The position numbers and the translations under genes were made by a program. A DNA stretch of 64,000 nt, from the IMG/VR virus record IMGVR_UViG_3300029705_000031; one strand, written 5' to 3'. Below are positions 11,946-50,070 of the stretch, in pieces (within the stretch, counting starts at the first letter, position 1; the number at the start of each line of letters is the position of its first letter). This DNA is from a virus. Taxonomy: Duplodnaviria > Heunggongvirae > Uroviricota > Caudoviricetes. The notes below the pieces were generated by a model, which had not been told where the DNA came from, did not search any database, and saw only the letters and a program-made list of their open reading frames with translations.

Positions 11946-12908
11946 TTAACTACGACTTAATACACGAGTAATTTCAGTGTATAAATCTAGAGCATCTTTG
12001 TTAATTGTACTATCAACTAACTGATCTCTATATCCTCTAATGTTAAAGATACAAGAAGTTATAATAACTTCTAATAGTCTTTGATAATTTTCTATAACAA
12101 ATATAGAATCTTCACCATAAAGATTCATGAACTCATTTAAGAATACTCTTAGATTTAGCTTATTTAATACGTCAAAGTATTCAGATAATGCTTTAAAGAA
12201 AGTTTCTAATGATTCATAATTCTCTTTAGGGAAATCTAAATCTGTACTAAGCATTAGTTTCTTAGGACTATTACCAGAAGTGCAAGCATAAGCAATATCG
12301 TTAGTTGCATCATTTTCTGGTTGTTCTAATACATAAAGTAGGAAGAACTTAGCTAATAGATAACTAATACGGTCTGACTTCTCAGGCATTAGATTGATTG
12401 CATATAGTTTATCTAATACTTTTCTCATTAGCTTTACATAGCATTCAGCAGAAAGTTTTTTAATCTTACCATTCATAGTAAATTTTCTTTCTGTTTTTTG
12501 TAACTCTCTAGAGATATAAGCACATTCTAGATAACCATATAGTTTTTTATTATCTATTCTAACTTCACCTTGTTTGCTTTTAGTAGCACCTATAGACTCT
12601 AGATTTACTACAGCAGTTATGTCATCCTTAAGAACTCTATTCTTTATAAGAAATATTGGAACTAATCTGGTTAGTTTTACATGATCTGAAAAAACAGTTG
12701 TTATTTCTTTATTTTCATAAGAATTGATAACTTGTTGCTTTAAGGTAAATGAAAAACGTCTTTTAATGATATCGATTTCATTTTTAAAATATTCAGCATC
12801 TACTAGATCTTTTTCCCAATCTATTTTCTTTACATTTTCTCTAAAGTTTTTACCTACTTTTTCATCTTTTCTAAATAGGTAAGTATCACTTAATCCTTTC
12901 AAGCACAA
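11946..12908 (-). CDS. hypothetical protein (320 aa); first gene of minus-strand operon
   Basis: ORF preceded by 130-nt AT-rich divergent intergenic region. Confidence 0.55.
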   Translation of the reverse strand: MCLKGLSDTYLFRKDEKVGKNFRENVKKIDWEKDLVDAEYFKNEIDIIKRRFSFTLKQQVINSYENKEITTVFSDHVKLTRLVPIFLIKNRVLKDDITAVVNLESIGATKSKQGEVRIDNKKLYGYLECAYISRELQKTERKFTMNGKIKKLSAECYVKLMRKVLDKLYAINLMPEKSDRISYLLAKFFLLYVLEQPENDATNDIAYACTSGNSPKKLMLSTDLDFPKENYESLETFFKALSEYFDVLNKLNLRVFLNEFMNLYGEDSIFVIENYQRLLEVIITSCIFNIRGYRDQLVDSTINKDALDLYTEITRVLSRS

Positions 12909-14630: not shown

Positions 14631-14642
14631 TTTATAAAAATT

Positions 14643-14677
14643 TTAGTTCTAAGTACTAATAAAGTACTTAGAACTAA
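14643..14677 (+). terminator. rho-independent terminator
   Basis: inverted repeat ttagttctaagtact / agtacttagaactaa. Confidence 0.6.
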
Positions 14678-14841
14678 AAATGTCTGTTAAAAACTTAAGG
14701 AGGTTAAAATGAATGACAAAGATTTAGATCAAAAAAGAAAATGTTATTCTTAATTTAATAAATTGTTTCCAAATTTTTGGAATAAAACTTTATTTAAATA
14801 AATCATTATAAAGAATATATGAAAGTGTAGGTGAAATATAC

Positions 14842-17149: not shown

Positions 17150-17183
17150 AGAGAAAGTAAGATTAGAATATCTTACTTTCTCT
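17150..17183 (+). terminator. rho-independent terminator
   Basis: agagaaagtaagat / atcttactttctct hairpin. Confidence 0.6.
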
Positions 17184-17214: not shown

Positions 17215-17592
17215 ATGAGAAGAAATGTCTATCCAGAAACTTTTCTAGGGAAAATTGTTTATCATGAAAAAGAAAAAACGTATTATCGAATTGATCATTT
17301 ACCTAAAAGATATAGAAACACATCTGAGACACATAGTGGAGAATATTTTACAAGAGTAACTAGATTAACTAATAATGAAGATAAGGACTCTTCAGATACC
17401 GTGTTACATATTAATCCAAATACTATAGAACATATGAAACTAATGAAATCTAAGAAAAATTCTAAACTAGAAATTAAGATTTATAAAGACAATAGTTATT
17501 ATAATGAAAATCTAGTTGAGCATACTGCATTAACAAAAGATTTTAATGAATATATATATGATATTCACTATGGTATTCATAAGAAGGAATAA
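17215..17592 (+). CDS. hypothetical protein (125 aa)
   Basis: ORF with AGAAAGGAAAT RBS context. Confidence 0.45.
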   Translation: MRRNVYPETFLGKIVYHEKEKTYYRIDHLPKRYRNTSETHSGEYFTRVTRLTNNEDKDSSDTVLHINPNTIEHMKLMKSKKNSKLEIKIYKDNSYYNENLVEHTALTKDFNEYIYDIHYGIHKKE

Positions 17593-17598
17593 ATACCT

Positions 17599-18150
17599 AT
17601 GGATTTAACAAAAGTTAGTAAATACTTAAGTCTAATTTTACGTCATAAACCTGAAGTAATTGGAATTACTTTAGATAAACATGGCTGGGCAAATACAAAA
17701 GAATTGATTGAAGGAATCAATAAACAACAAGATTTCAATATGAAAATGTTAGAAGAAATTGTTAGAAATGATAATAAACAACGTTATTCTTTCAATGAAG
17801 ATAAGACATTGATTCGTGCTAATCAAGGTCATTCCATTAATGTAGATGTAGAATTGGAAGAAAAAGAACCGCCTGAATTTCTTTATCATGGGACAGGTAT
17901 GAAATATGTAGGTTCTATTAATAGAATTGGATTACTTCCAAAAACTAGACTTTATGTTCATCTTTCAGAAACTTATGAGATTGCTATAGAAGTAGGTAAA
18001 CGACATGGTGAACCTAAAGTTTATCAAATTAAAGCTAAAAATATGTATAAAGATGGATATAAATTCTATCTATCAAAAAATGGTGTTTGGTTAACAAAAG
18101 AAGTTTCTCCGAAGTATTTTAATCATAATATAGATGCTACATTAAACTAA
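17599..18150 (+). CDS. kptA: RNA 2'-phosphotransferase Tpt1/KptA family
   Basis: hallmark Tpt1 motifs: SKYLSLILRHKPE (Arg-His), IRANQGHS (Arg), YHGT, RLYVHLS; 183 aa matches family size. Confidence 0.85.
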   Translation: MDLTKVSKYLSLILRHKPEVIGITLDKHGWANTKELIEGINKQQDFNMKMLEEIVRNDNKQRYSFNEDKTLIRANQGHSINVDVELEEKEPPEFLYHGTGMKYVGSINRIGLLPKTRLYVHLSETYEIAIEVGKRHGEPKVYQIKAKNMYKDGYKFYLSKNGVWLTKEVSPKYFNHNIDATLN

Positions 18151-18155
18151 CAAAT

Positions 18156-18198
18156 TTTGGATATATCTCATTTTAGAGATATATCCAAAATTTTTTTA
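18156..18198. terminator. bidirectional terminator between convergent genes
   Basis: ttttggatatatctc / gagatatatccaaaa with flanking A/T runs. Confidence 0.7.
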
Positions 18199-32336: not shown

Positions 32337-33866
32337 ATGGCGACTAAAAAGAATCTAACATATAACGAAGATAGTATTAAAGTCCAAGAATATCCTGATA
32401 ATGTAAGATCTAATCCTACAGTCTATATCAGTAGTCTTGGTAAAGAAGGTAATACGCATCTACTAAGAGAAGTAATTGATAACTCTATTGATGAATTCCT
32501 AAATGGTTTTGGTAAAACAATTACAATTGAAATTTCCAATAAAAAAGGTGTATTTAGAGTAATTGATGAAGGTCGTGGTGTTCCTCCTAAATCTATTGAA
32601 AGAGCATTTACTACATTACATGCTTCAGGTAAATTCGATAAAGATAGTTATAGCACATCAGGTGGTCAGCATGGTCTTGGTAGTACATGTGTTAATGCAC
32701 TTAGTAAGTATTTCCTTGTCATTACACATGAAGGTGGTCATGAATACTCTCAAAGATTTGAATATGGTAAGAAAGTAACTGAACTAAAAGATTTAGGAAA
32801 GTCTGATAAGGTAGGTACTATTGTAGAGTTTTGTCCTGATGAATCTGTAATGGATACATTTGAGATTGACATTGAATCAGTCAAAGATGAATGTAAGATG
32901 AAGTCTTTTATCAATAAAGGACTTACTATCATTATTAAGGACATGGATGAAAAGAAACAGGCTAAGTATTATCATAAAGATGGTATTGAGGAATACGTAC
33001 AGTTAAATGCTAAGAAAGCTCTATTTAATCCTATTACATTCTCTACATCAACTACTGTTAACAAGGCTAATAAAGAATTGAATGTAGAAATCGATTGTTC
33101 CTTTACTTATGATAACTCTACTGATCCTATCAATATTAAATCCTTCTGTAATTCCATTTATACTAGTGATGGCGGTACTCATGAAACTGGTTTTAAAACA
33201 GCTCTTACTAGTTTGATTAAAAAGTATATTGCTGATAATAACCTACTAACTAAAAAAGATGCAAATCTAGACATTACTGGTGATTCAGTTCAGGAAGGTG
33301 TAGTAGCAGTAGTATCTATCAAACATCCTCATCCGATGTATGATCAGCAGTCTAAGAAAAAGCTTAACTCTACAGAAGTTTCTGGTGCAGTAATGAAAGC
33401 AGTTAATGCAGAATTTAGTAAGTGGATTGAAACCCATGCTAAAGAAATGAAAGTACTTTGTACTAAAGTAATTGAATCTGCAAAGGCTAACAGTGCTGCT
33501 AAGAGAGCTAAAGAACTAGCTAATAAGAAATCTGAAAATGGAATTACTGCTGTTTCTGATCTATCAAAATTAGCTAACTGTATTTCTAAGAAACCTGAAG
33601 AATGTGAACTGTTTGTAGTTGAGGGTAATTCTGCAAGTTCAAGTGCTAGAAATGGTAGAGATAAGCAAACTCAGGCTGTTTATGCTCTAAGAGGTAAGAT
33701 TCTCAATACTAACAATCTAGCTGAAACTAAGATTTTTGAAAATAAGGAACTATCAGATTTGATTTATATCTTAACTGGTAAGAAAACTGCAATTGGTAAG
33801 AATTTCAATGTTGAAGACATGAAGTATCATAAACTGGTAGCCTTGACTGATGCTGACGATGACGGT
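32337..33866 (+). CDS. type IIA DNA topoisomerase ATPase subunit (GyrB/T4 gp39-like), exon 1 (GHKL ATPase + transducer + first half of Toprim, ends ...LTDADDDG)
   Basis: GHKL motifs EVIDNSIDE, IDEGRGVP, GGQHGLGSTCVNALS; Toprim VEGNSASSSARNGRDKQTQAVYALRGKILN; ORF stops 3 codons after DADDDG where GyrB continues SHIRTLLLTFFYR. Confidence 0.85.
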
Positions 33867-35157
33867 AAATGACACATTAAGTCTGCATCAGTGAGAAATT
33901 TTCTAACAATACATTAGTATTAATGTTAGGAGGTTTCATTCAAATGAAAAATGAAAAAGAAACTAAAGAAAGATATGCTTCTGGTATTGAAAATTGTAAA
34001 AAACAAGCTCAAAATCTTAAACAAAAAGCATCTGAAAAATTTTTAAGTAAAGTTTACGAACAAGTTGGTGATGATTATACTTTTCTGGAAACTTATGTAA
34101 CGAGTAAAACTAAACTCTGGGTAATACATAATGTTTGTGGACATAAGTATAGAGTAACTCCAAATGAGTTTACTTCTCATAAAAGACGTTGTCCAAACTG
34201 TGCAAATAAAAAAAGAGTACTTAATACTGGAATAAAACCTCATACATTAGAATCTATTATTGAAAGTGTAAAAGAATTATCTAATGACGAATATGAGGTA
34301 GTTAGTAATGAGTATGAAAATAATAAAGAAAAAATTTGGGTTAGACATAAAACATGTAGTTATTCATACCTTGTTCGTTATAATGACTTTCAGCAAGGAT
34401 ATAGATGTCCTTTATGTGCTGACATGAATAAAAGTCAGAATAATTCTAAACCAATACAGGATATTAAAAGTGTTCTAGATTTTAATAAAATTGAGTATGA
34501 ATCAGAAGTGTCATTTGAAGAATGTGTAGACAAACGTTTTCTTCCATTTGATATATTGGTTTATACTGATAAAGTCAATGATGAATACTTTTTAATTGAG
34601 TATGATGGACAACAACATTCTGATCCTAATGCACAATTTGGAGGAACTAAAGAAGAAAGACTTATTAGATTTGAGCTAACTCAAAAACATGACACTATAA
34701 AAAATGCTTTTTGTGAAGAAAACAGTATAAAACTTTATAGAATTTCTTATAAAGAAGATTTGATGAGCAAACTAAGAAGTATATTGGAAGAAAATAATCT
34801 AATTTGACTTGCAGTGAATGCCGTCTAAAAACCTAGTTAACTGCGGGAAACTATCAATAAACACTATTTACTAAACTAAGATAGTAATATACTTAGTGGC
34901 AATGGGTAACTCCAAAGATATAGTAAAAAGAATAGTGTTTGATACAATCGACGCAACGAAGTATCCTACATTTAGTAAAAGATAGGATATGAGTTCAACG
35001 ACTATCGAAACCAACTAACTTAATGTTAGTAATAAGGTAAGTTGAAATACTTACACGAAGGGAGTAGAGTAGGGAAATGTAAATTACAAAGTACCGAAAA
35101 GCTAGGCTATACTAATTTAGTATAGAAAATATAGTCTAAATTATGCAAAGTAATTTG
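33867..35157 (+). mobile_element. group I self-splicing intron (ORF in P1 loop) interrupting the GyrB-like gene inside the Toprim DxDxD motif
   Basis: IGS gccgtc (34818..34823) complementary to exon end gacggu with U.G at the splice site; P-like element aactgcgggaaa (34840..34851); R element gttcaacgactatcgaaacc (34993..35012); S element aaaatatagtc (35127..35137) giving P7 gacta/tagtc; omega-G 35157; exon 2 restores ...HIASLILGFVYRH. Confidence 0.8.
33923..34807 (+). CDS. intron-encoded putative homing endonuclease: three CxxH/CxxC zinc-finger-like repeats + C-terminal Vsr/DUF559-like (EDxHD-type PD-(D/E)xK) nuclease domain
   Basis: repeats CGHKYRVTPNEFTSHKRRCPNCA, CSYSYLVRYNDFQQGYRCPLCA; C-terminal FDILVYTD...LIEYDGQQHSD...RLIRF pattern typical of Vsr-like nucleases; AGGAGG RBS. 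Confidence 0.5.
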   Translation: MLGGFIQMKNEKETKERYASGIENCKKQAQNLKQKASEKFLSKVYEQVGDDYTFLETYVTSKTKLWVIHNVCGHKYRVTPNEFTSHKRRCPNCANKKRVLNTGIKPHTLESIIESVKELSNDEYEVVSNEYENNKEKIWVRHKTCSYSYLVRYNDFQQGYRCPLCADMNKSQNNSKPIQDIKSVLDFNKIEYESEVSFEECVDKRFLPFDILVYTDKVNDEYFLIEYDGQQHSDPNAQFGGTKEERLIRFELTQKHDTIKNAFCEENSIKLYRISYKEDLMSKLRSILEENNLI

Positions 35158-35982
35158 CTTCACATTGCAAGCCTTATCTTAGGATTTGTATATAGACATG
35201 CTAAACCCATTTTGGAAAAAGGTTACATGTATATTGCAATGCCTCCTCTTTATTCTATCATTGAAAGAAATAAGAAACGTTATTTCTTAAATCAAGAGGA
35301 ATATGATGCATATATTGAGGAAAAGATTTTTGAAAACTATGTATTTAGTTGTAATGAGATAGGTTTAAATAAGACTAAAGCTAAAACCATTCTTAAGAAT
35401 TTTGAAACTTACAAAAACAAAGTAAGTGAACTATCTACTAGTACAGGTATCAATATGTATTTAATTGATGATGTATGTGATTATTTACGTACTAATGAAA
35501 ATGCAACAAGTAAGGATATTGTGAATTTATTAAAACAGATTGGTGATTTTGAATTCTTTAAGAATGATGAAGGAAATTCTGAGATTAATGGTCTTTATGA
35601 TAATAGCTTTGTAAATGCAGTAATTAAGGATTTAGTAAAGTCTGCTAAAAAAGCTAAGAAGATTCTAGAAGATCTTAGTATTCCTGAAGAAGTATTCATC
35701 AATGATTATCATCTATCAATTAAGAACTATCAAGACATGTATAACAAGGTTACACCTAAGTCCAGAAGTCGATTCAAAGGCTTGGGAGAAATGGATGCTA
35801 ATGAACTTTGGGAAACTACTCTTGATCCTTCAGTTAGAAACATTATGCAAGTTGTACTATCAGATGAAGAAAAGACAGATGATACTATGGATACACTACT
35901 AAATTCTAATAGTAAGTATGCAGACAAACGTAAAGTATTCTTAATGAAAAATCAGCAAAAGATTAAGGAATTAGAAATCTAA
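35158..35982 (+). CDS. type IIA topoisomerase ATPase subunit (GyrB-like), exon 2 (rest of Toprim and C-terminal domain)
   Basis: HIASLILGFVYRHAKPILEKGYMYIAMPPLY aligns with GyrB HIRTLLLTFFYRxMxxLIExGxVYIAQPPLY; exact 3' splice site +/- a few nt. Confidence 0.8.
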   Translation, partial: LHIASLILGFVYRHAKPILEKGYMYIAMPPLYSIIERNKKRYFLNQEEYDAYIEEKIFENYVFSCNEIGLNKTKAKTILKNFETYKNKVSELSTSTGINMYLIDDVCDYLRTNENATSKDIVNLLKQIGDFEFFKNDEGNSEINGLYDNSFVNAVIKDLVKSAKKAKKILEDLSIPEEVFINDYHLSIKNYQDMYNKVTPKSRSRFKGLGEMDANELWETTLDPSVRNIMQVVLSDEEKTDDTMDTLLNSNSKYADKRKVFLMKNQQKIKELEI

Positions 35983-36089: not shown

Positions 36090-36440
36090 ATGGCACAAGT
36101 TACTATAGATGCAACTCAGGATTACAAAGTTACTGACATTAGAAAAAACGTCAATAATAAGTATGATACTACTATTAAGATGCTTAAGAAGTGGACTATG
36201 GAAAACTTCTATTTCAATAACAATGTAGTTCATTATCTACATCCAGAAGCAGCTTACACTACTCAGATTGATAAATCCATTAGATGTAATGAGGTTGTTT
36301 ATAAGAAGTCTGAATTCGATACCCCTCTGTCTCATATGATGTACATGTTCATTGTTATTGGTAAAACAATGGAAGAAGATGAGAGAATTGAAGCTATTGA
36401 TGCTTTATGTAAGTCAGTTGAGGATGACTCTGTTGTTTGA
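36090..36440 (+). CDS. hypothetical protein (116 aa)
   Basis: ORF with AAGGAG RBS. Confidence 0.45.
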   Translation: MAQVTIDATQDYKVTDIRKNVNNKYDTTIKMLKKWTMENFYFNNNVVHYLHPEAAYTTQIDKSIRCNEVVYKKSEFDTPLSHMMYMFIVIGKTMEEDERIEAIDALCKSVEDDSVV

Positions 36441-36569
36441 CTACCAATGTTTAGAAAGAATCTAGGTTCAGGAAAACAAAGAAAATTTTGGTAATTTTCT
36501 AACTTTCTTTTTAACTATATATAATAAACCTGTCATAAAAATCAAACATTTTTAAGGAGGACATTAGTT

Positions 36570-37007
36570 ATGTATAGTTTTGGTAAGGAAGTAAGAGATC
36601 TAAAAGAAGCAGAAAAAGTTACGATTGATCTAATTGAAAATGGTAAGTTTAATGAATTTTTAGAAAAAACAAACATTGACAAAGACTTTTTAATTAGTAA
36701 GATTGAAGTGGCAGAATGTTTTACATTAGGAATTGACTATGATATCTGTCTAGAAGATTGCTTTAATCCAGAAACTCAGCAGTCGATTATTGATGAAATC
36801 AAACAGCGAGAAGGCTATGCTGACAATTCTTTAATTGTTGGAGATTGTTCTGTATATCTAGAAGATTCTGATAAGATGCTTTTTGGTTATTTCCTATGTA
36901 GTGATGTTTTCTCTAATACCAATACTGATAGCATGCTTCTACTATCTGTAGGTTTTGCTCTAGGAGAAGATATTGCCAATGCAACTAAGCAGTTTGTAAC
37001 TTTATAA
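36570..37007 (+). CDS. hypothetical protein (145 aa)
   Basis: ORF with AAGGAGG RBS. Confidence 0.45.
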   Translation: MYSFGKEVRDLKEAEKVTIDLIENGKFNEFLEKTNIDKDFLISKIEVAECFTLGIDYDICLEDCFNPETQQSIIDEIKQREGYADNSLIVGDCSVYLEDSDKMLFGYFLCSDVFSNTNTDSMLLLSVGFALGEDIANATKQFVTL

Positions 37008-37016
37008 AAACACTAA

Positions 37017-37056
37017 AAAGAGGATGTTTTATTCATTAAAACATCCTCTTTATTTT
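37017..37056 (+). terminator. rho-independent terminator
   Basis: aaagaggatgtttt / aaaacatcctcttt. Confidence 0.65.
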
Positions 37057-37076
37057 GTTTTAGAGGAGAGTTAATC

Positions 37077-37334
37077 ATGGAAAGCTTAAAGAATGTAATA
37101 GAAAATGAGCATATTTTTATAGTAGAAGTTGAAGAAGTTTTACAAAAGTTAGTTGCTATTAAAGCAGATAGTAAAGAAGAAGCATTAAAAAGAGCTAAAG
37201 AAAAATACAAAAATTGTGAACTTATCTTAAATGAAGAGGATTTTAAAGAAACTAGCTTTAAGATTTATGAATACAATGATCCTAGAGAAATCATAGAACT
37301 AGTAATCACAGCTTTAGCTAATAGAACTTGTTAG
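37077..37334 (+). CDS. hypothetical protein (85 aa)
   Basis: ORF with GGAGAG RBS. Confidence 0.4.
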   Translation: MESLKNVIENEHIFIVEVEEVLQKLVAIKADSKEEALKRAKEKYKNCELILNEEDFKETSFKIYEYNDPREIIELVITALANRTC

Positions 37335-38377
37335 AAAGGACTAATGATGAAATGACTATTGAAGAAATCAAAAATATGGTTAATGGTGAATCATACGATT
37401 TTCTAAGAACTAATCCACATCTTAAGGATAGAATCATTTTTCTTACATTAGGTGGTAGCTATGCCTATGGTACAAATAATGAAAATTCAGATGTAGATGT
37501 TCGTGGTTGTGCTCTTAATAGTGTTAATGATATCCTCGGTATGTCAAATTTTGAACAGGTAGTAAATACAACAACAGATACGACAATCTATAGTTTTAAT
37601 AAATTGATTAAACTCTTAATCAGCTGCAATCCTAACACCATTGAATTACTTGGTTGTAAACCAGAACACTATTTTTACATTACAGATATTGGTAAAGAAC
37701 TAATAGACAATAGAAAAATTTTTCTTTCTAAAAAAGCAGTTGAGGATTCTTTTGGTGGATATGCAACTCAGCAGCTTCGTCGTTTAGAAAATGCAATAGC
37801 TAGAGATAAACTATCACAGGAAGATAATGAAAGACACATTAGAAATTCCATGCAAAGATCTTTAAATCACTTTATTGATAAATATGGAATTTCTGATGGT
37901 AATGGTGTTGAACTCTTTATAGATAAAAGTAATCGTGATGATTTAGATTGTGAAATTTTCTGTAAGATTTACCTTGACAAAATTCCAGCAAGAGATTTTA
38001 CTGTTATGTTAAACTCTCTATCAAATGTAATTAGTAGTTATGGAAAACTAAATCATAGAAATCATAAGAAAGATGATGCACATCTTAATAAACATGCAAT
38101 GCATCTAATTAGACTGTATCTAATGGCTATTGACATTCTAGAAAAAGAAGAGATCAATACTTATAGAGAAAATGATATAGAATTTCTATTAAGTATTCGT
38201 AATGGAAGATATCAAAATGAAGATGGTACTTACCATAAAGATTTCTTTGATATTGTATCTGATTATGAAAAACGTTTAGTATATGCTAAAGAAAATTCTA
38301 GTCTTCCTATGGAGCCAAATATGGAACTTATTGAAGAATTTACAATAGATGTAAATAGGAGGTCATTAGATGTATAA
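37328..38377 (+). CDS. Pol-beta-superfamily nucleotidyltransferase (349 aa), translationally coupled to CCA-adding enzyme
   Basis: hG[GS]x9-13Dh[DE]h signature LGGSYAYGTNNENSDVDVRG near N-terminus; 8-nt overlap with next gene. Confidence 0.5.
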   Translation: MLERTNDEMTIEEIKNMVNGESYDFLRTNPHLKDRIIFLTLGGSYAYGTNNENSDVDVRGCALNSVNDILGMSNFEQVVNTTTDTTIYSFNKLIKLLISCNPNTIELLGCKPEHYFYITDIGKELIDNRKIFLSKKAVEDSFGGYATQQLRRLENAIARDKLSQEDNERHIRNSMQRSLNHFIDKYGISDGNGVELFIDKSNRDDLDCEIFCKIYLDKIPARDFTVMLNSLSNVISSYGKLNHRNHKKDDAHLNKHAMHLIRLYLMAIDILEKEEINTYRENDIEFLLSIRNGRYQNEDGTYHKDFFDIVSDYEKRLVYAKENSSLPMEPNMELIEEFTIDVNRRSLDV

Positions 38378-39713
38378 TGTCTCTTTCAATATTCCAGATA
38401 ATGTGAATGTTATCTTAGATACTTTACATGATAATGGATATGAAGCATATATAGTCGGTGGATGTGTTAGAGATAGTCTGTTAGGATTACAACCAAAAGA
38501 TTGGGATATTTGTACTTCAGCACTTCCACCACAAATACTAGAAGTTTTTAATGATAAGCGTATAATTGAAACAGGTTTAAAACATGGAACAGTTACTATA
38601 GTTCTAGATGACGAACAGTATGAGATTACAACATATCGTACTGATGGAAACTATTCTGATAATCGACATCCAGATTCAGTAACATTTGTTAGTAACCTTA
38701 AAGAAGATCTTGCAAGAAGAGATTTTACTATAAACGCTATGGCTTATAACAAACAAGATGGTTTGATTGACTATTTTAATGGTTATAAGGATTTAAAGAA
38801 TGGTATAATTTCTTGTGTTGGAGATGCTAATGAACGTTTTAATGAAGATGCGTTACGTATTATGAGAGCTTTACGTTTTTCTTCTAGATATGAAATTCCA
38901 ATTGCAGAATCCACACAAGAAGCTATTCATAAAAATAAGGATTTACTTAAAAATATTGCCATTGAACGCATTAATAGCGAATTATGTAAATTGTTACTTG
39001 GTTATGGTGGATCCTATATTTTAGCAAACTATAAAGATGTGATTACAACTATTATTCCAGAATTAAAACCTTGTATTGGATTTAATCAAAATAATCGTTA
39101 TCATGAATACGATGTTTATGATCATATCAGACATGCAGTATACAATTATGGAGGTTCGGATTTAGTAGTAATTATATCACTCTTACTTCATGATATTGGC
39201 AAACCTCATTGTTATACTGAAGACTGTAACGGAGGACATTTTTATGGTCATGGAGTAGTAAGTCATGATATAGCAGAGAAAGTATTAGACAATTTAAGAT
39301 TTGATAATAAAACAAAACATGATGTTCTTGAATTAGTATTATACCATGATTCAACTATTGAACCAACACCAAAAACAGTACGTAGATGGTTAAATAAAAT
39401 TGGTGAAAAACAATTTTTAAGACTTCTTGATATTCGTGAAGCAGATATGTTAGCACACTCCAAAGATACACAGAAGTCTAGATTAGAAAGAAATGATAAA
39501 CTTAGAAAAATTTTAGCTGAAATAATCCAATCTAATCAATGTTTTACTATAAAGGACTTAGCAATTAATGGTAAAGACATTATTGCTATGGGTGTACCTG
39601 AAGGTAAACGTATAGGTGAAATACTAAATACAGTCCTTAATGAAGTTATTAATGAAACTATTGTAAATGAAAGAAAATTTTTATTAGATTACGTATATTA
39701 TAATCTAGTATAG
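38370..39713 (+). CDS. cca: tRNA nucleotidyltransferase (CCA-adding enzyme/poly(A) polymerase family) with HD domain
   Basis: IVGGCVRDSLLGLQPKDWDICT, RRDFTINAMAY head-domain motifs and LLLHDIGKP HD motif. Confidence 0.8.
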   Translation: MYNVSFNIPDNVNVILDTLHDNGYEAYIVGGCVRDSLLGLQPKDWDICTSALPPQILEVFNDKRIIETGLKHGTVTIVLDDEQYEITTYRTDGNYSDNRHPDSVTFVSNLKEDLARRDFTINAMAYNKQDGLIDYFNGYKDLKNGIISCVGDANERFNEDALRIMRALRFSSRYEIPIAESTQEAIHKNKDLLKNIAIERINSELCKLLLGYGGSYILANYKDVITTIIPELKPCIGFNQNNRYHEYDVYDHIRHAVYNYGGSDLVVIISLLLHDIGKPHCYTEDCNGGHFYGHGVVSHDIAEKVLDNLRFDNKTKHDVLELVLYHDSTIEPTPKTVRRWLNKIGEKQFLRLLDIREADMLAHSKDTQKSRLERNDKLRKILAEIIQSNQCFTIKDLAINGKDIIAMGVPEGKRIGEILNTVLNEVINETIVNERKFLLDYVYYNLV

Positions 39714-39727
39714 AAGGAGAACACATA

Positions 39728-42700
39728 ATGGCACAGAATGTAATTCAAAAGGATATTGTTGATATTCAAAAAGACAATATGCTTCAGTATATGATGTCTC
39801 TAATGTATGATAGAGCGATTCCTGATATTAGAGATGGATTAAAACCAGTACAGAAATTTATCCTTTGGAGTTGTTACAGTTCAGGTTTCTTTCCAAATAA
39901 ACCCCATGTAAAGTGTGCTAAGATTGCTGGTGATGTTATTGCTAACTTCCATCCACATTCACTAGATGCAGCTTATGAAGCATTGTGTAGACTTGCTCAG
40001 ACTCATTCTATGAATATTCCATTAATTGATTTTCATGGTGCATGTGGTTCTATTGATGGATCAGGCGCAGCAGCTCATAGATATTGTGTGACTGGTGATA
40101 CCTTAATTAGTCTACCAAATGGTAAATTAAAAAGAATTGATGAACTAATTGAAAATTCTAATGATGATTCAACTATGGATGTAGATTTTGAAGTATTAGA
40201 TTTTAAAAATAATCCAGTACATGTTTCTAAATTCTTTAATTCTGGAAAACATGATATAATCAAGATTAAAACCAGTTCTGGTTGTACTATTAGAGGTAGT
40301 TATAATCATCCTATCTTGTGTTTATATAAAAATCCTACTGATGGTCTACCAGAATTCAGATGGACAACTTTAGATAAAATTGAAACTGGATGTTATGCTG
40401 TTATAGCATCTAAATTCAATAATTCTTTTAATGAAACTATAAGTGAAGAAGAAAAGCTTAAAGCAATTTTCTTTGGTGGAATGGTTTCTGAAGGAGGTTT
40501 ATCTAAAAATCAGAGATACTATAGAGTAAGTTTCTCCAATCAAGATAATGAATACTATAATCTAGTGGAATCTGGATATAAAGTATATCTTGAAGAGAAT
40601 AATCTAAGTAATTTGAATATTCGTATTAATCCAAATGCTCGTGGTGGAGTTAAAGAATTTTGTACTGAAGACAAAAATCTTCATAATTTAGTTAAAGAAC
40701 AAATTGGTGAAGATGCTCATAATAAACAGATTCCTCCCTATGTTCTAAACTCTAATTTAGAAATTCAAAGATGGTTTTTAAAGGCACTTTTTGAAGGAGA
40801 TGGAGGAGTAACATGTCGTTTAGATAAAAGAAGAAAAGATAATGTTACTGGACATGTATTTTATTCTACTTCTTCAACAAAACTTTTGAATGAATTAAAA
40901 ATTCTATTAATGAATTTTGGTATTAGAACTAAAGTTACTAAAGACAGATCTAATTTTAAACTTACAATTTATTCTTTAACTGACATGAAAATTTTTAAAG
41001 AAAAAATAGGATTTTTAAGTGATAGAAAAAATAAAGTATTGAATGAATTAGTAGAAAATAAAGAAATACAAATTACTAAGTCTTATGGTGTTTCTTCTTC
41101 AGATAAAATTCCATATCTTGCCGAATTCATTAGAAATAATAAACTTAGAAATACACATTATTTAAAGTCTCATAGCCTAAATTGTAAACAAGATATAGAT
41201 AAACATAATGATGTAATTAAAGATTCTTTGAGTTATGAAGAATATTTTAAGCTTATGAGAAAACTTGAAGTTTTAGATTTATACCATTATGAAGAAATTA
41301 TTGAAGTTGAAAGACTACCAGAAGAAGTAGTATATTCAATTAAAGTAGATTCTAATGATCATAGTTTTATTAGTAATGGTTTTATTAGTCATAATACTGA
41401 GGCAAAACTTAGTAAATATGGATTAGATATTCTTAGTGAAATCGATAAGGATGCTGTTGATTTTGAAAAGAACTATGATGTAACTAAAGATCAACCAACT
41501 GTTTTACCTGCAGTAATTCCTAATATCCTATTGAATTCTTCAATGGGTATTGCAGGTGGTTATGCTTCTTCAATTCCTCCACATAACATCAAGGATGTAT
41601 GTAATACTGTATGTGAACTAATTGATAATCCTAATATGTCAGTTCAAGATGTAGCTAAGAAACTAGTTCCTGACTTTCCTACAGGTGGTATCTTATGTTC
41701 TAAGAAGGAAATTGAAAAAGCTTACATTACTGGTCAGGGTTCAGTAAAACTAAGAGGTAGAGCAACTATCAATAGAAATAAGAATAACACATCAGAAATT
41801 GTTATTACTGAAATTCCATTTATGACTACAATTGGTCCTCGTATGAGTGGCACATCTACTAATACTGAGGGTGGTTTGATTAATTCCATTGTAGCTAAGA
41901 TTAAAGATGGTACAATTGATGGAATTAAGGATATTCACGATATTTCTGATAAGAATGGTCTATGTATTAAAGTTTTTATCAAGAAAGATTATGACCCTGA
42001 TGTTATTCTAAATCAGTTATACAAGTTCACTCAGTTAGAATCTACTTTTAAGATCATTCTAGTTTGTAAGAATGGTAATTTCTTTAAGGTTTATAACATC
42101 AAGGAAATTCTAACTGAATGGATTGAATTCCGTGTATCTACTATTAGACGTATCATTACACATGATATCAAGAAAGCTAAGTATCGTGAACATATTCTAG
42201 AAGGTCTATTAAAAGCATTAACTGATATCGATACTGTTATTAGTATCATTAAGAAAGCTAATGGAAGAGCTGATGCTAAAGTAAAGTTAGTTAGGAAATA
42301 TGGATTTACTGATTTACAGGTTGAAGCTATTCTTGACATGAAACTTTCTCAGTTAAACTCTCTAGATGGAAAGAAGCTAGAAGAAGAAAAACTAAGTAAG
42401 CAAAAAGAAATTCTAGAACTAAAAGAGAATTGGAAAGAATCCAATATCTATGAAAGAATTAAGAAAGAACAGAAAGAATTTGCTAAAAAATATGGTAGTG
42501 AAAGAAAGACTACTGTAGAAGAGATTGATACTGATATTACTACTGAAGACATTATTGCTGATGAAGATACTTTGATTGTCATTACTCAGGGTAATTACAT
42601 TAAGCGTATTTCAAATGAGTTTAGAACTCAGAAACGTGGTACTCAGGGTATTTCTATTGGTGATAACTCTATCACAGAAATGTTCTCTGCTTCTACTAAG

Positions 42701-43543
42701 GATCATCTACTATGTTTTACTAATACTGCCAGAGTCTATGATTTAAAAGCTTATGACATTAAAGAATCTAAGGATCTTAAAGCTAAGGGTTTAAGAATTG
42801 AAAATTATCTAAATCTAAAAGAAAATGAAACAGTTACTAACATTCTATGTATCAATAATACACAGATGAATGATAATGAATCCTTCCTAGTTTTCGCTAC
42901 TAAGAATGGTATGATTAAGAAAACTAAGTTAGAAGAATTCAATAACATTCGTTCTACTGGTATTATTGCTTTGATGTTAAAGTCTGGTGATGAACTAGTT
43001 TCTGTAAAGTATATTGATACTAGTAAACCTATGCAAGATATCTTGATTTCTACTAAAAATGCTCAGACAGTTAGATATGATCATGAAGAAATCAAAGAAT
43101 TAGGTAGAAATACCTATGGTGTAATTGGTATTAATCTAGAAAATGATGACCGTATTACAGATATGTGTATCATTGAAGATGACGAACAACTAATCTTCTT
43201 TGCTACTAAAAATGGTTTAGGTAAAACTATTCGTATTACTGATAATGTAGAAAAAGTTGATCCCAATACTAAAGAAAAAGTAATCATCAATGATGGTTTT
43301 CCTAGACTAAAACGCTCATCCAACATTAAAGGCAGACTATGCATGAAACTAAAAGAAAATGACGAATTAGTTTCAATGGTAGCTATCAATAATGTAAATG
43401 ACGAACTAATGATTGTTACTGATAGCAAACTATTAGTAGTCAATACTGAAGAATTCAAAGAACCTTTAAAGAGACCTACTTATGGTAAGAAATTAGTTAG
43501 TTTGACTAATGAAGACTATGTAAGAAAGGTGATTCTAAAGTGA
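39728..43543 (+). CDS. type IIA topoisomerase DNA breakage-reunion subunit (GyrA/ParC-like; precursor containing an intein)
   Basis: N-terminal GyrA blocks HPHSLDAAYEALCRLAQ and AAAHRY(active-site Tyr)...TEAKLSKYG split by intein; C-terminal beta-pinwheel-like repeats. Confidence 0.85.
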   Translation: MAQNVIQKDIVDIQKDNMLQYMMSLMYDRAIPDIRDGLKPVQKFILWSCYSSGFFPNKPHVKCAKIAGDVIANFHPHSLDAAYEALCRLAQTHSMNIPLIDFHGACGSIDGSGAAAHRYCVTGDTLISLPNGKLKRIDELIENSNDDSTMDVDFEVLDFKNNPVHVSKFFNSGKHDIIKIKTSSGCTIRGSYNHPILCLYKNPTDGLPEFRWTTLDKIETGCYAVIASKFNNSFNETISEEEKLKAIFFGGMVSEGGLSKNQRYYRVSFSNQDNEYYNLVESGYKVYLEENNLSNLNIRINPNARGGVKEFCTEDKNLHNLVKEQIGEDAHNKQIPPYVLNSNLEIQRWFLKALFEGDGGVTCRLDKRRKDNVTGHVFYSTSSTKLLNELKILLMNFGIRTKVTKDRSNFKLTIYSLTDMKIFKEKIGFLSDRKNKVLNELVENKEIQITKSYGVSSSDKIPYLAEFIRNNKLRNTHYLKSHSLNCKQDIDKHNDVIKDSLSYEEYFKLMRKLEVLDLYHYEEIIEVERLPEEVVYSIKVDSNDHSFISNGFISHNTEAKLSKYGLDILSEIDKDAVDFEKNYDVTKDQPTVLPAVIPNILLNSSMGIAGGYASSIPPHNIKDVCNTVCELIDNPNMSVQDVAKKLVPDFPTGGILCSKKEIEKAYITGQGSVKLRGRATINRNKNNTSEIVITEIPFMTTIGPRMSGTSTNTEGGLINSIVAKIKDGTIDGIKDIHDISDKNGLCIKVFIKKDYDPDVILNQLYKFTQLESTFKIILVCKNGNFFKVYNIKEILTEWIEFRVSTIRRIITHDIKKAKYREHILEGLLKALTDIDTVISIIKKANGRADAKVKLVRKYGFTDLQVEAILDMKLSQLNSLDGKKLEEEKLSKQKEILELKENWKESNIYERIKKEQKEFAKKYGSERKTTVEEIDTDITTEDIIADEDTLIVITQGNYIKRISNEFRTQKRGTQGISIGDNSITEMFSASTKDHLLCFTNTARVYDLKAYDIKESKDLKAKGLRIENYLNLKENETVTNILCINNTQMNDNESFLVFATKNGMIKKTKLEEFNNIRSTGIIALMLKSGDELVSVKYIDTSKPMQDILISTKNAQTVRYDHEEIKELGRNTYGVIGINLENDDRITDMCIIEDDEQLIFFATKNGLGKTIRITDNVEKVDPNTKEKVIINDGFPRLKRSSNIKGRLCMKLKENDELVSMVAINNVNDELMIVTDSKLLVVNTEEFKEPLKRPTYGKKLVSLTNEDYVRKVILK
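40085..41395 (+). mobile_element. intein (437 aa) with LAGLIDADG homing-endonuclease domain, inserted immediately after the catalytic tyrosine codon of the GyrA-like gene
   Basis: block A CVTGDTLISL, block B GSYNHPIL (TxxH), two LAGLIDADG motifs AIFFGGMVSEGG and FLKALFEGDGGV, block G VYSIKVD...ISHN followed by +1 Thr (TEAKL); removal restores AAAHRY-TEAKLSKYG. Confidence 0.9.
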
Positions 43544-46217: not shown

Positions 46218-47199
46218 TGGTATTCCCGTTCCTAGACGTGATGAAAATAGCAAGAAAATGATCAACGATTACACTACACATGTTAAAATGCAGCAGATTT
46301 TGGATAATGATACTAGAGGTATCAACACAATCCTCTTTATTGACGAGCTAAATAGATGTGAAGCAGCAGTGAATCAGGAACTCATGCAGTTGATTCTTGA
46401 CCGTAGAATCAATGAAACGATTCTTCCTGATTCTTGTATTATTGTTGCAGCAGGTAACCCTGAGTATGACGATGATAACGACTATCAGGTTCAGGTTATG
46501 AACGACGCCATGAAGAATCGGTTTGTTAAGTATACACTTGAAGCTGATGTAAAGGACTGGCTTAAGTGGGCATCTAACACAAAGGATGATAACAAAACTG
46601 GTACAGAAGCAATTGATTCTGACGTAATTGAGTTTATTGCAGAAATGCCTAATCTACTTCACGATCCTCATAGTAAAGAAGACATCAAGCCCACTCCTAG
46701 AGGTTGGGAACTTCTTTCTAAGGTAATGAGACAGATTAAGAATTACTATCCTGAAGATTTTGAAAGTATGTTGTTTGAAGCAGCAAAGGGTGTAGTTGGT
46801 CAGACTCCTGCAACCCAGCTAATTGGTTTCCTGAGAGATAAGAAGAATCCTATTACTTCTACTAAGGATATTTTCAAGTCTTCTGATAAGGAATTTAACA
46901 ATAACGTACTTAACAAGATTAAGGGTGATACATCCACTAGACAGTTCGTTATCATTGATCGTTGCATTCGTTACATTAGCGAAAACATTAAGGAATTCAA
47001 TGATAAGAAGACTGGTGAAAATAGCTGTAAGAGATTCATTGAAGTATGTAAGGTACTTCCCAAGGACATCATGGTTGGCGTTCTAAAGAACATTGGTGTT
47101 AATCATAAGAATATTCATGATACTTTTACTAAGTATGATGACTATATGGATCTATTCTTTGATACCAATAAGAAGACTATGACTGCGGCAAACATCTAA
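46218..47199 (+). CDS. MoxR-type AAA+ ATPase, exon 2 (Walker B, sensor and AAA lid)
   Basis: ILFIDELNRCEAAVNQELMQLILDRR...IIVAAGNPEYDDDNDYQV...AMKNRF = classic AAA_5/MoxR Walker B-sensor blocks; in-frame extension upstream of first ATG back to 46198. Confidence 0.75.
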
Positions 47200-47212
47200 G
47201 CCATACTAATAG

Positions 47213-47270
47213 AGTTTAAGAGTTAGAGAAAAATAAAAAATTCTCTAACTCTTAAACTTTTTTCTTTTTT
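47213..47270 (+). terminator. rho-independent terminator (long-loop hairpin)
   Basis: agtttaagagttagag / ctctaactcttaaact + T-runs. Confidence 0.6.
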
Positions 47271-47318
47271 AATGAGTAATCAAAAAATCTTATAGAGAAA
47301 GGAGATGTACTATAAGTT

Positions 47319-48488
47319 TTGACTGATAAAGAATTGGAATTTGTAAAAAAGTTTCTAGATTTTAAAGAAGCTACTGAAAACAGTTACTACTATGATCGTT
47401 ATATAACACCAAGTGATGTTATGAAGTTTTTACAACCAGATGCAAGAAGAAACTATAAAGATGCTTGTAACATACTTTCTTATGAAGATAGAATAGATTT
47501 AGCAAAAATCTATCTAGAAAGAATAGTAAGTATGACATTTAGTAACAATTTTGGTTACTATAAAAATAGTCATAATAGTAATAAAGGTTACTATGAAACG
47601 ATGTTATCCAATAGTGGAATTGACTGTTATGTTGATGTAGCTAAAACAAATGAAGAAGGTTTTCCATTAGAGTTCAACAAGAAAAATGAGAACTTTTTCT
47701 ATATCTTCTTAGATGGTCTCTATAAGTATTGGGATAAGCAGTTAGAATACTATAAAAACAATCAACAAGAAGCTGTAGAGATTATGTTTGAATCTCAATG
47801 TAATGGTACTTGGTTTTACTATAACCATTTCAACTATAACTTCCTAAAAGTATATCTAGAATATCTGAAATCTAGAGGATTTAAGATTAACATCTTTGAG
47901 CTTTTCAATAAGAAACTCAAAAGAGTTATAAAAAGTATGGATAAAGGTTTAGCACATTATACTAAATCTTATCTATTTGAAAGTTTAGCTATAATCTTTG
48001 ATTTCTATAATGCTATTCTAGATATCTATGGAGAAGATAATGAAAAAGTAATCAATAAGCTACAGAACAATCTAATCACTATTTTCAAAGATGAAATAGA
48101 AACTGAGAAATTTGGTTTCATGAATACTTTCTTATACACAAAGAGGTGGACTAACAATAGTAAGAATAGAAGTTCTGAATCAACTAGTGATGTAGTTCAT
48201 TTCTGGGAGTATGTTTACAATAATGAACTAAATCCTACTTTAAAACGTATCTTCTTGAATGCAATAATTCATACTTGGAATAAGTCACCTATTCCAAAAG
48301 TAAGAAACTCAATGCAGTTACTAGTGGATTTAGCAACTTATAAATATGATGGAAGATCAGGATTTCCATACCATAATCAAAGATTGTTCTATAATGACAT
48401 AATTGCAAATGCAAACATGCTAAAGAAATCTGTTAAATCTATACTATTTTCTAAAGCAATTCTAGAAGAAGGAGGTTTATTTCTATAA
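47319..48488 (+). CDS. hypothetical protein (389 aa), TTG start, between MoxR ATPase and VWA genes
   Basis: ORF with AAAGGAG RBS; stop overlaps next start (TAATG). Confidence 0.5.
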   Translation: MTDKELEFVKKFLDFKEATENSYYYDRYITPSDVMKFLQPDARRNYKDACNILSYEDRIDLAKIYLERIVSMTFSNNFGYYKNSHNSNKGYYETMLSNSGIDCYVDVAKTNEEGFPLEFNKKNENFFYIFLDGLYKYWDKQLEYYKNNQQEAVEIMFESQCNGTWFYYNHFNYNFLKVYLEYLKSRGFKINIFELFNKKLKRVIKSMDKGLAHYTKSYLFESLAIIFDFYNAILDIYGEDNEKVINKLQNNLITIFKDEIETEKFGFMNTFLYTKRWTNNSKNRSSESTSDVVHFWEYVYNNELNPTLKRIFLNAIIHTWNKSPIPKVRNSMQLLVDLATYKYDGRSGFPYHNQRLFYNDIIANANMLKKSVKSILFSKAILEEGGLFL

Positions 48489-49984: not shown

Positions 49985-49997
49985 GTGTTAAATTCAT

Positions 49998-50036
49998 ACT
50001 AGAGACTATAATACAACTTATAGTCTCTAGTATTTT
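49998..50036 (+). terminator. rho-independent terminator
   Basis: actagagactata / tatagtctctagt + T-run. Confidence 0.65.
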
Positions 50037-50070
50037 ACATAAATCAAAAAATAAAAAGGAGACTTAAAAA

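What the first reader, a model, noticed from the sequence alone, without database searches (positions are those of the whole stretch)
17599..18150. Phage-encoded Tpt1/KptA RNA 2'-phosphotransferase
All four catalytic-tetrad contexts of Tpt1 are present (LRH, IRANQGHS, YHGT, VHLS). Tpt1 removes the junction 2'-phosphate left by fungal/plant-type tRNA ligation, and it can also ADP-ribosylate 5'-phosphorylated nucleic acid ends. The family is not established in phages. One possibility is that it completes repair of tRNAs cut by host anticodon nucleases. Another is that it neutralises a 2'-phosphate-bearing or phospho-ended nucleic acid made by a defence system. A third is that it modifies RNA or DNA ends through NAD+.
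Basis: partly seen in the sequence, partly recalled or inferred. Interest (0 to 1): 0.7.

Follow-up and report, generated by a model that had tools for sequence, protein, structure and literature searches.

The report
Phage copy of Tpt1/KptA RNA 2'-phosphotransferase

Summary
ORF 17599-18150 (+) encodes a 183-aa Tpt1/KptA protein. It matches Pfam PF01885 (E 1e-45), PHROG 5470 (E 2e-75) and Runella Tpt1 in the PDB (46% identity).

The window is part of a jumbo phage. The identical protein lies on contigs up to 320 kb.

The claim that the family is "not established in phages" is wrong. There is a dedicated PHROG family. 98 GenBank phage records carry a homologue. At least 231 IMG/VR contigs encode one. 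Two comparative-genomics papers already assign phage KptA to tRNA repair. I found no biochemical study of a phage Tpt1.

A tRNA-repair role gains some support. The window also encodes adjacent RlaP and CCA-adding/HD enzymes. In related viral contigs Tpt1 lies directly next to RlaP and/or the CCA enzyme. About 40 other contigs place it beside NAD+-salvage genes.

No RNA ligase, 2H, PNK or Macro gene was found in the window plus 7-10 kb either side. The rest of the genome could not be read.

The parts
17599..18150 (+). Tpt1/KptA RNA 2'-phosphotransferase gene (183 aa). Tetrad residues R15, H16, R62, R117; NAD-lobe residues H97, T99, H121, R135.
17583..17588 (+). GAAGGA ribosome-binding site, 10 nt before the ATG, lying inside the end of the upstream ORF.
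   Evidence: read directly from the sequence
17215..17592 (+). Upstream 125-aa ORF of unknown function that ends 6 nt before the Tpt1 start, so it is probably co-transcribed. It has no homologue beside Tpt1 in related viral loci, so it is not a conserved partner.
18152..18193 (.). 18-bp perfect hairpin followed by a T-run, between Tpt1 and the convergent baseplate gene. It looks like a bidirectional intrinsic terminator that ends the Tpt1 transcription unit.
37328..38377 (+). RlaP-family (PF10127) RNA-repair nucleotidyltransferase, a candidate functional partner elsewhere in the window.
   Evidence: A 53.5%-identical homologue lies directly after Tpt1 in L067.
38370..39713 (+). CCA-adding tRNA nucleotidyltransferase with an HD domain. 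It overlaps the RlaP stop by 8 nt.
   Evidence: A ~52% identical homologue lies one gene after Tpt1 in ~24 IMG/VR loci.

Best explanation
The ORF is a functional Tpt1/KptA enzyme encoded by an uncultured low-GC jumbo phage. By homology, it uses NAD+ to remove a 2'-phosphate from RNA in two steps. First the RNA 2'-PO4 attacks NAD+, releasing nicotinamide and forming a 2'-phospho-ADP-ribosyl-RNA intermediate. [quoted passage not shown] Its most likely role in infection is as one component of a phage RNA (tRNA) repair toolkit. It would clear 2'-phosphates left when the 2',3'-cyclic-phosphate ends made by host metal-independent ribonucleases are opened, so that the tRNA can be rebuilt by the phage's RlaP and CCA-adding/HD enzymes and possibly by a ligase encoded elsewhere. 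What is shown: family membership, intact catalytic residues, phage origin, and co-occurrence or adjacency with RlaP and CCA genes. What is inferred: enzymatic activity, the substrate, and the link to host defence.
For: Family and active site: with tetrad roles from PMC6097658 and PMC6333775. Phage origin: baseplate, virion protein, prohead protease, endolysin, DnaB and Dda helicases, RNR and topoisomerase II are in the window, and a holin lies just outside it. The identical protein sits on contigs up to 319,626 bp and in 24+ contigs from several samples with the same neighbours. The gene's GC (27.7%) and GC3 (13%) match its neighbours, so it is not a fresh insertion. RNA-repair context: RlaP (PF10127, E 1e-16) and a CCA-adding/HD enzyme are adjacent at 37.3-39.7 kb. 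RlaP adds 1-2 NMPs to damaged RNA 3' ends (PMC12776372). In IMG/VR locus L067 the order is Tpt1-RlaP-CCA, contiguous and co-oriented. In ~24 loci it is Tpt1, one ORF, then CCA. C. difficile phage AR1086-1 has kptA ~5 kb from its RlaP homologue. Published predictions for phage KptA agree.
Against: No RNA ligase, 2H cyclic phosphodiesterase, polynucleotide kinase or Macro/NADAR gene was detected among ORFs of the window by PHROGs or Pfam. None appeared in the ~7-10 kb flanks either. There are no tRNA genes in the window. Here Tpt1 sits in a replication-gene block, 19 kb from RlaP-CCA. kptA neighbourhoods in phiCD211, Ea35-70, AD1 and AR1086-1 show no ligase. No source of internal 2'-PO4 RNA is known in bacteria (PMC6097658). 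I found no experimental study of a phage Tpt1 in the searchable library.
Confidence: 0.55

Rival explanations
1. Ligase-independent tRNA 3'-end healing. Tpt1 acts as an NAD+-dependent terminal 2'- (or 3'-) phosphomonoesterase on tRNA 3' ends. The ends have been cut in or near the CCA or acceptor end and their cyclic phosphate opened, for example by the HD domain of the CCA enzyme. Tpt1 creates the 2',3'-diol that RlaP and the CCA-adding enzyme need to rebuild the end.
For: A subset of Tpt1 enzymes (C. thermocellum, A. pernix) remove terminal 2'-PO4 and 3'-PO4 with NAD+ (PMC6573784). Tpt1 is adjacent to CCA-adding/HD and RlaP genes in related viral contigs, and both are present in this window. 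No ligase was found anywhere I could look. HD domains of bacterial CCA enzymes having 2',3'-cyclic phosphodiesterase activity is recalled from my own knowledge (E. coli enzyme) and was not checked here.
Against: Runella Tpt1, the closest solved relative (46% identity), is ineffective on terminal phosphates. Most of the ~320 kb genome is unread and may hold a ligase. Adjacency in two or three phage lineages could simply be inherited synteny.
Confidence: 0.18
2. Tpt1 acts as an ADP-ribosyltransferase that caps 5'-phosphorylated RNA or DNA ends, either to protect or mark phage nucleic acids or to disable host ones.
For: 5'-phosphate ADP-ribosylation by Tpt1/KptA/TRPT1 enzymes is documented in vitro (abstracts of PMC12678800 and PMC10415124; PMC11833690). 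The gene lies in a DNA-replication block with SbcD-like nuclease and DnaB.
Against: The physiological relevance of phosphate-end ADP-ribosylation is unclear even for cellular enzymes. No Macro, PARG or NADAR reversal enzyme was found in the window. The full 2'-phosphotransferase tetrad, including the step-2 residue R62, is conserved, which argues for the complete two-step reaction.
Confidence: 0.1
3. Tpt1 belongs to an NAD+/ADP-ribose-centred counter-defence island rather than to RNA repair proper. It would be functionally coupled to phage NAD+ reconstitution.
For: In about 40 of the 80 nearest IMG/VR loci, Tpt1 lies two genes after a NAMPT/NAPRT-like gene. Nearby are a PRPP-synthetase-like gene, an isochorismatase-family (nicotinamidase-like) gene and NadE. 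A PRPS-like plus NAMPT-like pair is the make-up of NARP1 (Adps plus Namat; bioRxiv 10.1101/2024.02.11.579819). Tpt1 consumes NAD+ and releases nicotinamide.
Against: None of these NAD genes has a homologue in this window. The association may be a single phage lineage's synteny. The simplest reading is that NAD salvage supplies Tpt1's co-substrate, which is compatible with the repair model. The NARP papers do not mention Tpt1.
Confidence: 0.08
4. It is a recently captured cellular kptA carried as a passenger with no specific role in infection.
For: The nearest relatives are 70-77% identical and include proteins labelled as bacterial MAG proteins (Eubacteriales, Muribaculum). That is far closer than any GenBank phage homologue (at most 57.6%). 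Tpt1 is dispensable in model bacteria (PMC6333775).
Against: The protein is identical in 24+ contigs from several samples. Its composition is fully host- or phage-like. All catalytic residues are intact. Close homologues recur in hundreds of large viral contigs. Two of the 72-73% identical 'relatives' are themselves on phage- or mobile-element-like contigs.
Confidence: 0.07

Closest known systems
Runella slithyformis Tpt1 (PDB 7kw8/7kw9) and Clostridium thermocellum Tpt1 (6e3a/6ede)
   Same: Single-domain, ~180-aa two-lobe enzyme. 46% identity to RslTpt1 over 168 residues. The Arg-His-Arg-Arg tetrad and the NAD-lobe residues that were mutated in RslTpt1 (S8, K9, K62, Q78, H99, T101, I109, R137, H138) are all conserved.
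   Different: It is encoded by a phage. It does not sit in a ligase / HD-Pnk / MTase-HIT cluster as in Runella. Activity is untested.
Phage KptA genes already annotated (PHROG 5470): C. difficile phiCD211-type phages, Bacillus phage G gp280, and Erwinia/Dickeya/Klebsiella/Serratia jumbo phages
   Same: Same family and length. They occur in large or jumbo phages, stand alone, and usually lie among genes of unknown function. Comparative genomics predicts a tRNA-repair role.
   Different: Only 42-58% identical. This phage has no near DNA match in GenBank phages. Its virion protein resembles AR9/PBS1-type jumbo phages at only 28% identity.
Tpt1 of uncultured large gut-type viral contigs in IMG/VR (e.g. 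UViG_3300045988_142974)
   Same: 65-72% identical Tpt1, with homologous RlaP (53.5%) and CCA-adding/HD (~52-53%) enzymes in the same genomes.
   Different: In those contigs Tpt1 abuts RlaP/CCA or an NAD-salvage cluster. Here it is 19 kb from RlaP-CCA and follows DnaB.
Fungal/plant Trl1-Tpt1 tRNA splicing pathway
   Same: Same final chemistry: NAD+-dependent removal of a 2'-PO4.
   Different: No Trl1-type 2'-PO4-dependent ligase or 2H CPDase was found in the DNA examined. No tRNA introns or tRNA genes are in the window.

Membership tests
Tpt1/KptA (Pfam PF01885, PTS_2-RNA) | Full-length profile match above the curated threshold | tested here: met
   PF01885 at 156.3 bits against a cut-off of 26, profile positions 4-176 of 177. 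NCBIfam equivalog NF002014 at 240.3 against 239, a narrow pass. PHROG 5470 at E 1.6e-75.
Tpt1/KptA (Pfam PF01885, PTS_2-RNA) | [quoted passage not shown] | tested here: met
   R15, H16, R62 and R117 align to the tetrad. They are invariant in 12 homologues.
Tpt1/KptA (Pfam PF01885, PTS_2-RNA) | NAD+-lobe residues of the ADP-ribosyltransferase fold (HGT motif, VHLS His, Arg-His pair) | tested here: met
   H97, G98, T99, H121 and R135 are invariant, and H136 is nearly invariant.
Tpt1/KptA (Pfam PF01885, PTS_2-RNA) | NAD+-dependent removal of internal RNA 2'-PO4, or complementation of yeast tpt1-delta | not testable with these tools
   Requires biochemistry or genetics.
Phage RNA (tRNA) repair system in the sense of Iyer/Burroughs/Aravind | RNA ligase (Rnl-type ATP-grasp or RtcB) in the genome | tested here: inconclusive
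   None found among window ORFs by PHROGs or Pfam, nor in the 7-10 kb flanks. About 240 kb of the ~320 kb genome could not be read.
Phage RNA (tRNA) repair system in the sense of Iyer/Burroughs/Aravind | End-healing enzymes that create a 2'-phosphate (2H CPDase) or a 5'-phosphate (PNK) | tested here: inconclusive
   No 2H or PNK was detected in the window. The only candidate phosphoesterase is the HD domain of the CCA enzyme (PF01966, E 2e-6). The flank P-loop kinase is guanylate-kinase-like.
Phage RNA (tRNA) repair system in the sense of Iyer/Burroughs/Aravind | Accessory nucleotidyltransferases RlaP and CCA-adding enzyme | tested here: met
   RlaP PF10127 at E 1e-16. CCA enzyme PF01743 at E 1e-40 plus PF13735, PF12627 and HD. 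PHROG 388 and 2244.

The most novel reading that the evidence does not exclude
Tpt1, RlaP and the CCA-adding/HD enzyme form a ligase-independent, NAD+-dependent pathway in large gut phages. It would restore tRNA 3' ends cut by host defence nucleases. The HD domain opens the 2',3'-cyclic phosphate, Tpt1 removes the terminal 2'-phosphate, and RlaP and the CCA enzyme re-add the missing nucleotides. In sister lineages the pathway would be coupled to NARP1-like NAD+ reconstitution, so that it keeps working under NAD-depleting immunity.
Probability: 0.15. Interest if true: 0.6.

Novelty: new member of a known kind. Interest (0 to 1): 0.25.

Why it matters
The physiological substrate of bacterial and phage Tpt1/KptA is still unknown, because bacteria have no known source of internal 2'-phosphate RNA. 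Phage copies that sit beside RlaP, CCA-adding and NAD-salvage genes offer a tractable setting to find that substrate and to test whether NAD-dependent RNA end-healing is a counter-defence. This particular gene adds one more example. It does not open a new question.

Tried and rejected
- **Near-identity DNA search.** A megablast of 20 kb of the window against GenBank phages gave no match.
- **tRNA and RNA families.** The tRNA scan and the Rfam scan at gathering threshold of the whole window found nothing.
- **Partner enzymes in the window.** PHROG and Pfam scans covered about 60 window ORFs. They found no RNA ligase, RtcB, 2H, PNK, Macro, NADAR, Nudix or NAD-salvage gene.
- **Walking along the genome.**
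  - The first ORF's product is not on record.
  - Only 7-10 kb beyond each end could be read, and nothing relevant was there.
  - The 220-aa P-loop kinase in the left flank is guanylate-kinase-like, not a polynucleotide kinase.
- **A conserved kptA neighbourhood in annotated phages.** I looked in phiCD211, Ea35-70, AD1 and AR1086-1. The genes beside the AR1086-1 RlaP are an amidoligase-like protein, a DUF1653 protein and a pentapeptide-repeat protein, not a ligase or kinase.
- **A wrong guess.** I guessed that the 875-aa ORF overlapping the end of RlaP in L041/L042 would be a bacterial Pnkp-type kinase-phosphatase-ligase. It is a P-type Ca2+-ATPase.
- **Unidentified recurrent neighbours.** The 183-aa and 687-aa neighbours of Tpt1 in IMG/VR architecture B have no PDB sequence match.
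- **The upstream ORF as a partner.** The 125-aa ORF upstream of Tpt1 has no homologue next to Tpt1 elsewhere, so I rejected it as a conserved partner.
- **Literature gaps.** The Burroughs and Aravind 2016 RNA-repair paper is not held in the library. I did not predict a structure, because a 46%-identical solved structure exists.

Full report
**1. The observation**

The + strand has an ATG-to-TAA ORF at exactly 17599-18150, encoding 183 aa. A GAAGGA ribosome-binding site lies 10 nt upstream, inside the end of a 125-aa ORF that stops 6 nt before the start. An 18-bp perfect hairpin with a T-run at 18152-18193 follows the stop codon and separates the gene from a convergent baseplate gene.

The protein matches the family far beyond chance:
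- Pfam PF01885 (PTS_2-RNA, Tpt1/KptA): E 1.1e-45 over 4-176 of 177 profile positions.
- NCBIfam equivalog NF002014: 240.3 bits against a cut-off of 239.
- PHROG 5470 'RNA 2'-phosphotransferase': E 1.6e-75.
- PDB 7kw8: E 2.7e-43. C. thermocellum Tpt1 6e3a: E 3.5e-31.

Identity to the Runella enzyme is 46% over 168 aligned residues. I recall that 7kw8 is Runella slithyformis Tpt1, and the residue numbering agrees with that.

**2. Catalytic residues**

The essential tetrad is Arg16-His17-Arg64-Arg119 in RslTpt1 (PMC6097658) and Arg18-His19-Arg68-Arg121 in CthTpt1, where it grips the junction 2'- and 3'-phosphates (PMC6333775). Through the HMMER alignment these map to R15, H16, R62 and R117 of the phage protein.

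The further residues probed in RslTpt1 (S8, K9, K62, Q78, H99, T101, I109, R137, H138) are also all conserved: S7, K8, K60, Q76, H97, T99, I107, R135 and H136.

In a 12-sequence alignment with metagenomic and phage homologues, R15, H16, R62, R117, H97-G98-T99, H121 and R135 are invariant.

- LRH contains two tetrad residues.
- VHLS lies three residues after the fourth tetrad residue.
- IRANQGHS and YHGT are phosphate-contact and NAD-lobe motifs, not tetrad contexts.

The conclusion of an intact enzyme stands.

**3. What genome this is**

The window has 28.8% GC. It encodes:
- a virion structural protein, baseplate wedge and baseplate assembly proteins, a prohead protease and an endolysin;
- DnaB-like and Dda-like helicases and an SbcD-like nuclease;
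- a class I RNR large subunit, a dCMP deaminase and a T4-type topoisomerase II;
- several HNH endonucleases.

A holin lies just beyond the left end. The identical Tpt1 protein is on record on 24+ contigs from JGI, ENA and Logan samples with the same neighbours. The longest of those contigs is 319,626 bp.

There is no near DNA match among 50,697 GenBank phage records. A virion protein is 28% identical to those of AR9/PBS1-type jumbo phages.

This is therefore an uncultured jumbo phage, probably of a low-GC Gram-positive host. The host guess rests on the CHAP/SH3 endolysin and is an inference. Tpt1's GC (27.7%) and GC3 (13%) are indistinguishable from those of its neighbours.

**4. Is Tpt1 new to phages? 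No**

- PHROGs already has a family for it.
- tblastn finds homologues in 98 GenBank phage records. These include C. difficile phiCD211-type phages at 55-58% identity (annotated kptA), Bacillus phages, and Erwinia, Dickeya, Klebsiella and Serratia jumbo phages at 42-45%.
- The Ea35-70 annotation itself cites Bacillus phage G gp280.
- A pattern scan of IMG/VR using only two peptide patterns confirmed 231 viral contigs. The best 80 are 65-72% identical and mostly lie on 80-470 kb contigs.
- Two of the closest database relatives (72-73% identity) lie on 160-220 kb contigs that look like phages or mobile elements.
- Iyer et al. [quoted passage not shown]
- Iyer et al. [quoted passage not shown]

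What I did not find is any biochemical or genetic study of a phage Tpt1.

**5. Partners**

The window holds no tRNA genes and no Rfam families. PHROG and Pfam scans of about 60 ORFs found no RNA ligase, RtcB, 2H, PNK, Macro, NADAR, Nudix or NAD-salvage gene. The 7-10 kb I could read beyond each end had none either.

The window does contain two RNA-repair nucleotidyltransferases that overlap by 8 nt:
- an RlaP-family enzyme (PF10127, E 1e-16) at 37328-38377;
- a CCA-adding enzyme with an HD domain at 38370-39713.

RlaP was named for its association with RNA ligases. It has now been shown to add one or two NMPs to the 3'-OH of damaged RNAs and to help restore tRNA function (PMC12776372). Iyer et al. 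2021 list RlaP and CCA-adding enzymes as the commonest accessory repair enzymes of jumbo phages.

**6. Comparative context of the nearest viral Tpt1 genes**

I called ORFs in the 80 IMG/VR loci (Tpt1 plus or minus 10 kb), clustered them, and annotated the commonest neighbour families. Two recurrent architectures emerged.

Architecture B (about 24 loci):
- The order is unknown(687 aa) - unknown - unknown - Tpt1 - unknown(183 aa) - CCA-adding/HD.
- That CCA enzyme is 52-53% identical to the window's.
- In L067 (a 173 kb UViG), the 183-aa ORF is replaced by an RlaP 53.5% identical to the window's.
- This gives a contiguous, co-oriented Tpt1-RlaP-CCA block.

Architecture A (about 40 loci):
- The order is isochorismatase-family gene ... 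adenylosuccinate synthetase - PRPP-synthetase-like - x - NAMPT/NAPRT-like - x - Tpt1 - x - x - ... NadE.
- In L041/L042, an RlaP lies 3.5 kb further on.
- A PRPS-like plus NAMPT-like pair is the make-up of the NARP1 NAD+ reconstitution pathway. I did not test clade membership.

None of the NAD genes has a homologue in this window. C. difficile phage AR1086-1 has kptA about 5 kb from its RlaP homologue.

Each architecture may be a single lineage's synteny, so the number of independent associations is small, perhaps three to five.

**7. Mechanism**

Shown:
- The protein has every sequence feature of an active Tpt1.
- It is stably carried by a jumbo phage.
- It is the last gene of a + strand unit ending at a strong terminator.
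- The genome, and related genomes, pair it with RlaP and CCA-adding enzymes.

Inferred:
- It performs the two-step NAD+-dependent 2'-phosphate removal.
- It does so on tRNA or other RNA damaged by host ribonucleases.

Two versions of the repair role are possible:
- **Classical version.** A CPDase opens the cyclic phosphate to 3'-OH/2'-PO4, a ligase seals the break, and Tpt1 removes the junction 2'-PO4. This needs a ligase and a CPDase that I did not find.
- **Alternative version.** Tpt1 removes a terminal 2'- (or 3'-) phosphate so that RlaP and the CCA enzyme can extend the end. This needs no ligase and is chemically precedented for C. thermocellum and A. pernix Tpt1, but not for Runella or human Tpt1 (PMC6573784).

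Other readings are not excluded but have less support. They are 5'-phosphate ADP-ribose capping, a role centred on NAD/ADPr metabolites, and a passenger gene.

**8. Verdict**

The claim of novelty in phages is not supported. The gene is a new member of a known kind: a divergent phage Tpt1, at most 58% identical to GenBank phage homologues and at most 72% to those in IMG/VR.

The modest added value lies in the recurring physical link of phage Tpt1 with RlaP/CCA-adding enzymes and with NARP1-like NAD+ genes. This link suggests concrete experiments on the long-unknown substrate of bacterial-type Tpt1.

Noticed in passing
L018-L059 (IMG/VR loci), e.g. L041:5388-12594: In about 40 of the 80 closest viral Tpt1 loci, the gene is embedded in an NAD+ gene cluster. 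The cluster holds an isochorismatase-family (nicotinamidase-like) gene, a PRPP-synthetase-like gene, a NAMPT/NAPRT-like gene two genes upstream of Tpt1, NadE and adenylosuccinate synthetase. The PRPS-like plus NAMPT-like pair resembles NARP1 (Adps plus Namat). The NARP papers I read do not mention Tpt1.
   Followed up: partly
L067:9956-12982 (IMGVR_UViG_3300045988_142974): Tpt1, RlaP and CCA-adding/HD genes are contiguous, co-oriented and overlapping. In about 23 sister contigs an unknown 183-aa ORF (no PDB match) takes the place of RlaP.
   Followed up: partly
window 39728-43543 (+): The topoisomerase II A-like subunit is 1271 aa long. An insertion of about 480 aa (residues ~77-556) matches the Mycobacterium xenopi GyrA intein (E 3e-27), so it is probably an intein at the gyrase-A-type active-site position.
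   Followed up: partly
window 32337-35982 (+): The topoisomerase II large (GyrB-like) subunit is split into two ORFs, 32337-33872 and 35143-35982, by an HNH homing-endonuclease ORF at 33923-34807. Rfam found no group I intron at gathering threshold, so the basis of the split (intron, or a truly split gene) is open.
   Followed up: partly
window 36090-39713 (+): The RlaP-CCA pair is wedged between the two topoisomerase II subunit genes, together with a DpnD/PcfM-like small ORF (37077-37334) and two unknown ORFs. This looks like an inserted accessory cassette.
   Followed up: no
window 14641-14679, 17150-17183, 18152-18193: Long perfect hairpins of 14-18 bp sit immediately after the SbcD-like, DnaB-like and Tpt1 genes. 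Terminator-like sites are about five times more frequent than in shuffled sequence (5 against 1.1).
   Followed up: no
L041/L042:15094-17721: An 875-aa P-type Ca2+-transporting ATPase (E 1e-105 to PDB 8qmp) overlaps the end of RlaP on contigs classed as viral. This is unusual cargo, or a sign that these contigs are not purely viral.
   Followed up: partly
window 11946-12908 (-): The virion structural protein (PHROG 21032) has its only GenBank phage relatives, at 27-28% identity, in AR9/PBS1, Staphylococcus S6/PALS_2, Listeria LPJP1 and Yersinia phiR1-37 jumbo phages. This hints at a distant link to that uracil-DNA / multisubunit-RNAP jumbo-phage group. Five large ORFs nearby (332-1389 aa) have no PHROG match.
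   Followed up: no
P0029 (250 aa) and P0015 (314 aa): Some close Tpt1 homologues (70-74% identity) carry extra C-terminal sequence. In P0029 it is a Cys-rich, zinc-ribbon-like tail of about 70 aa (seen in alignment A1).
   Followed up: no
window 46258-51630 (+): A block made of a MoxR-like AAA_5 ATPase, an unknown 389-aa ORF, a 498-aa 'HNH' (PHROG 1314) protein and an SPFH/Band-7 protein. Its function in a phage is unclear.
   Followed up: no
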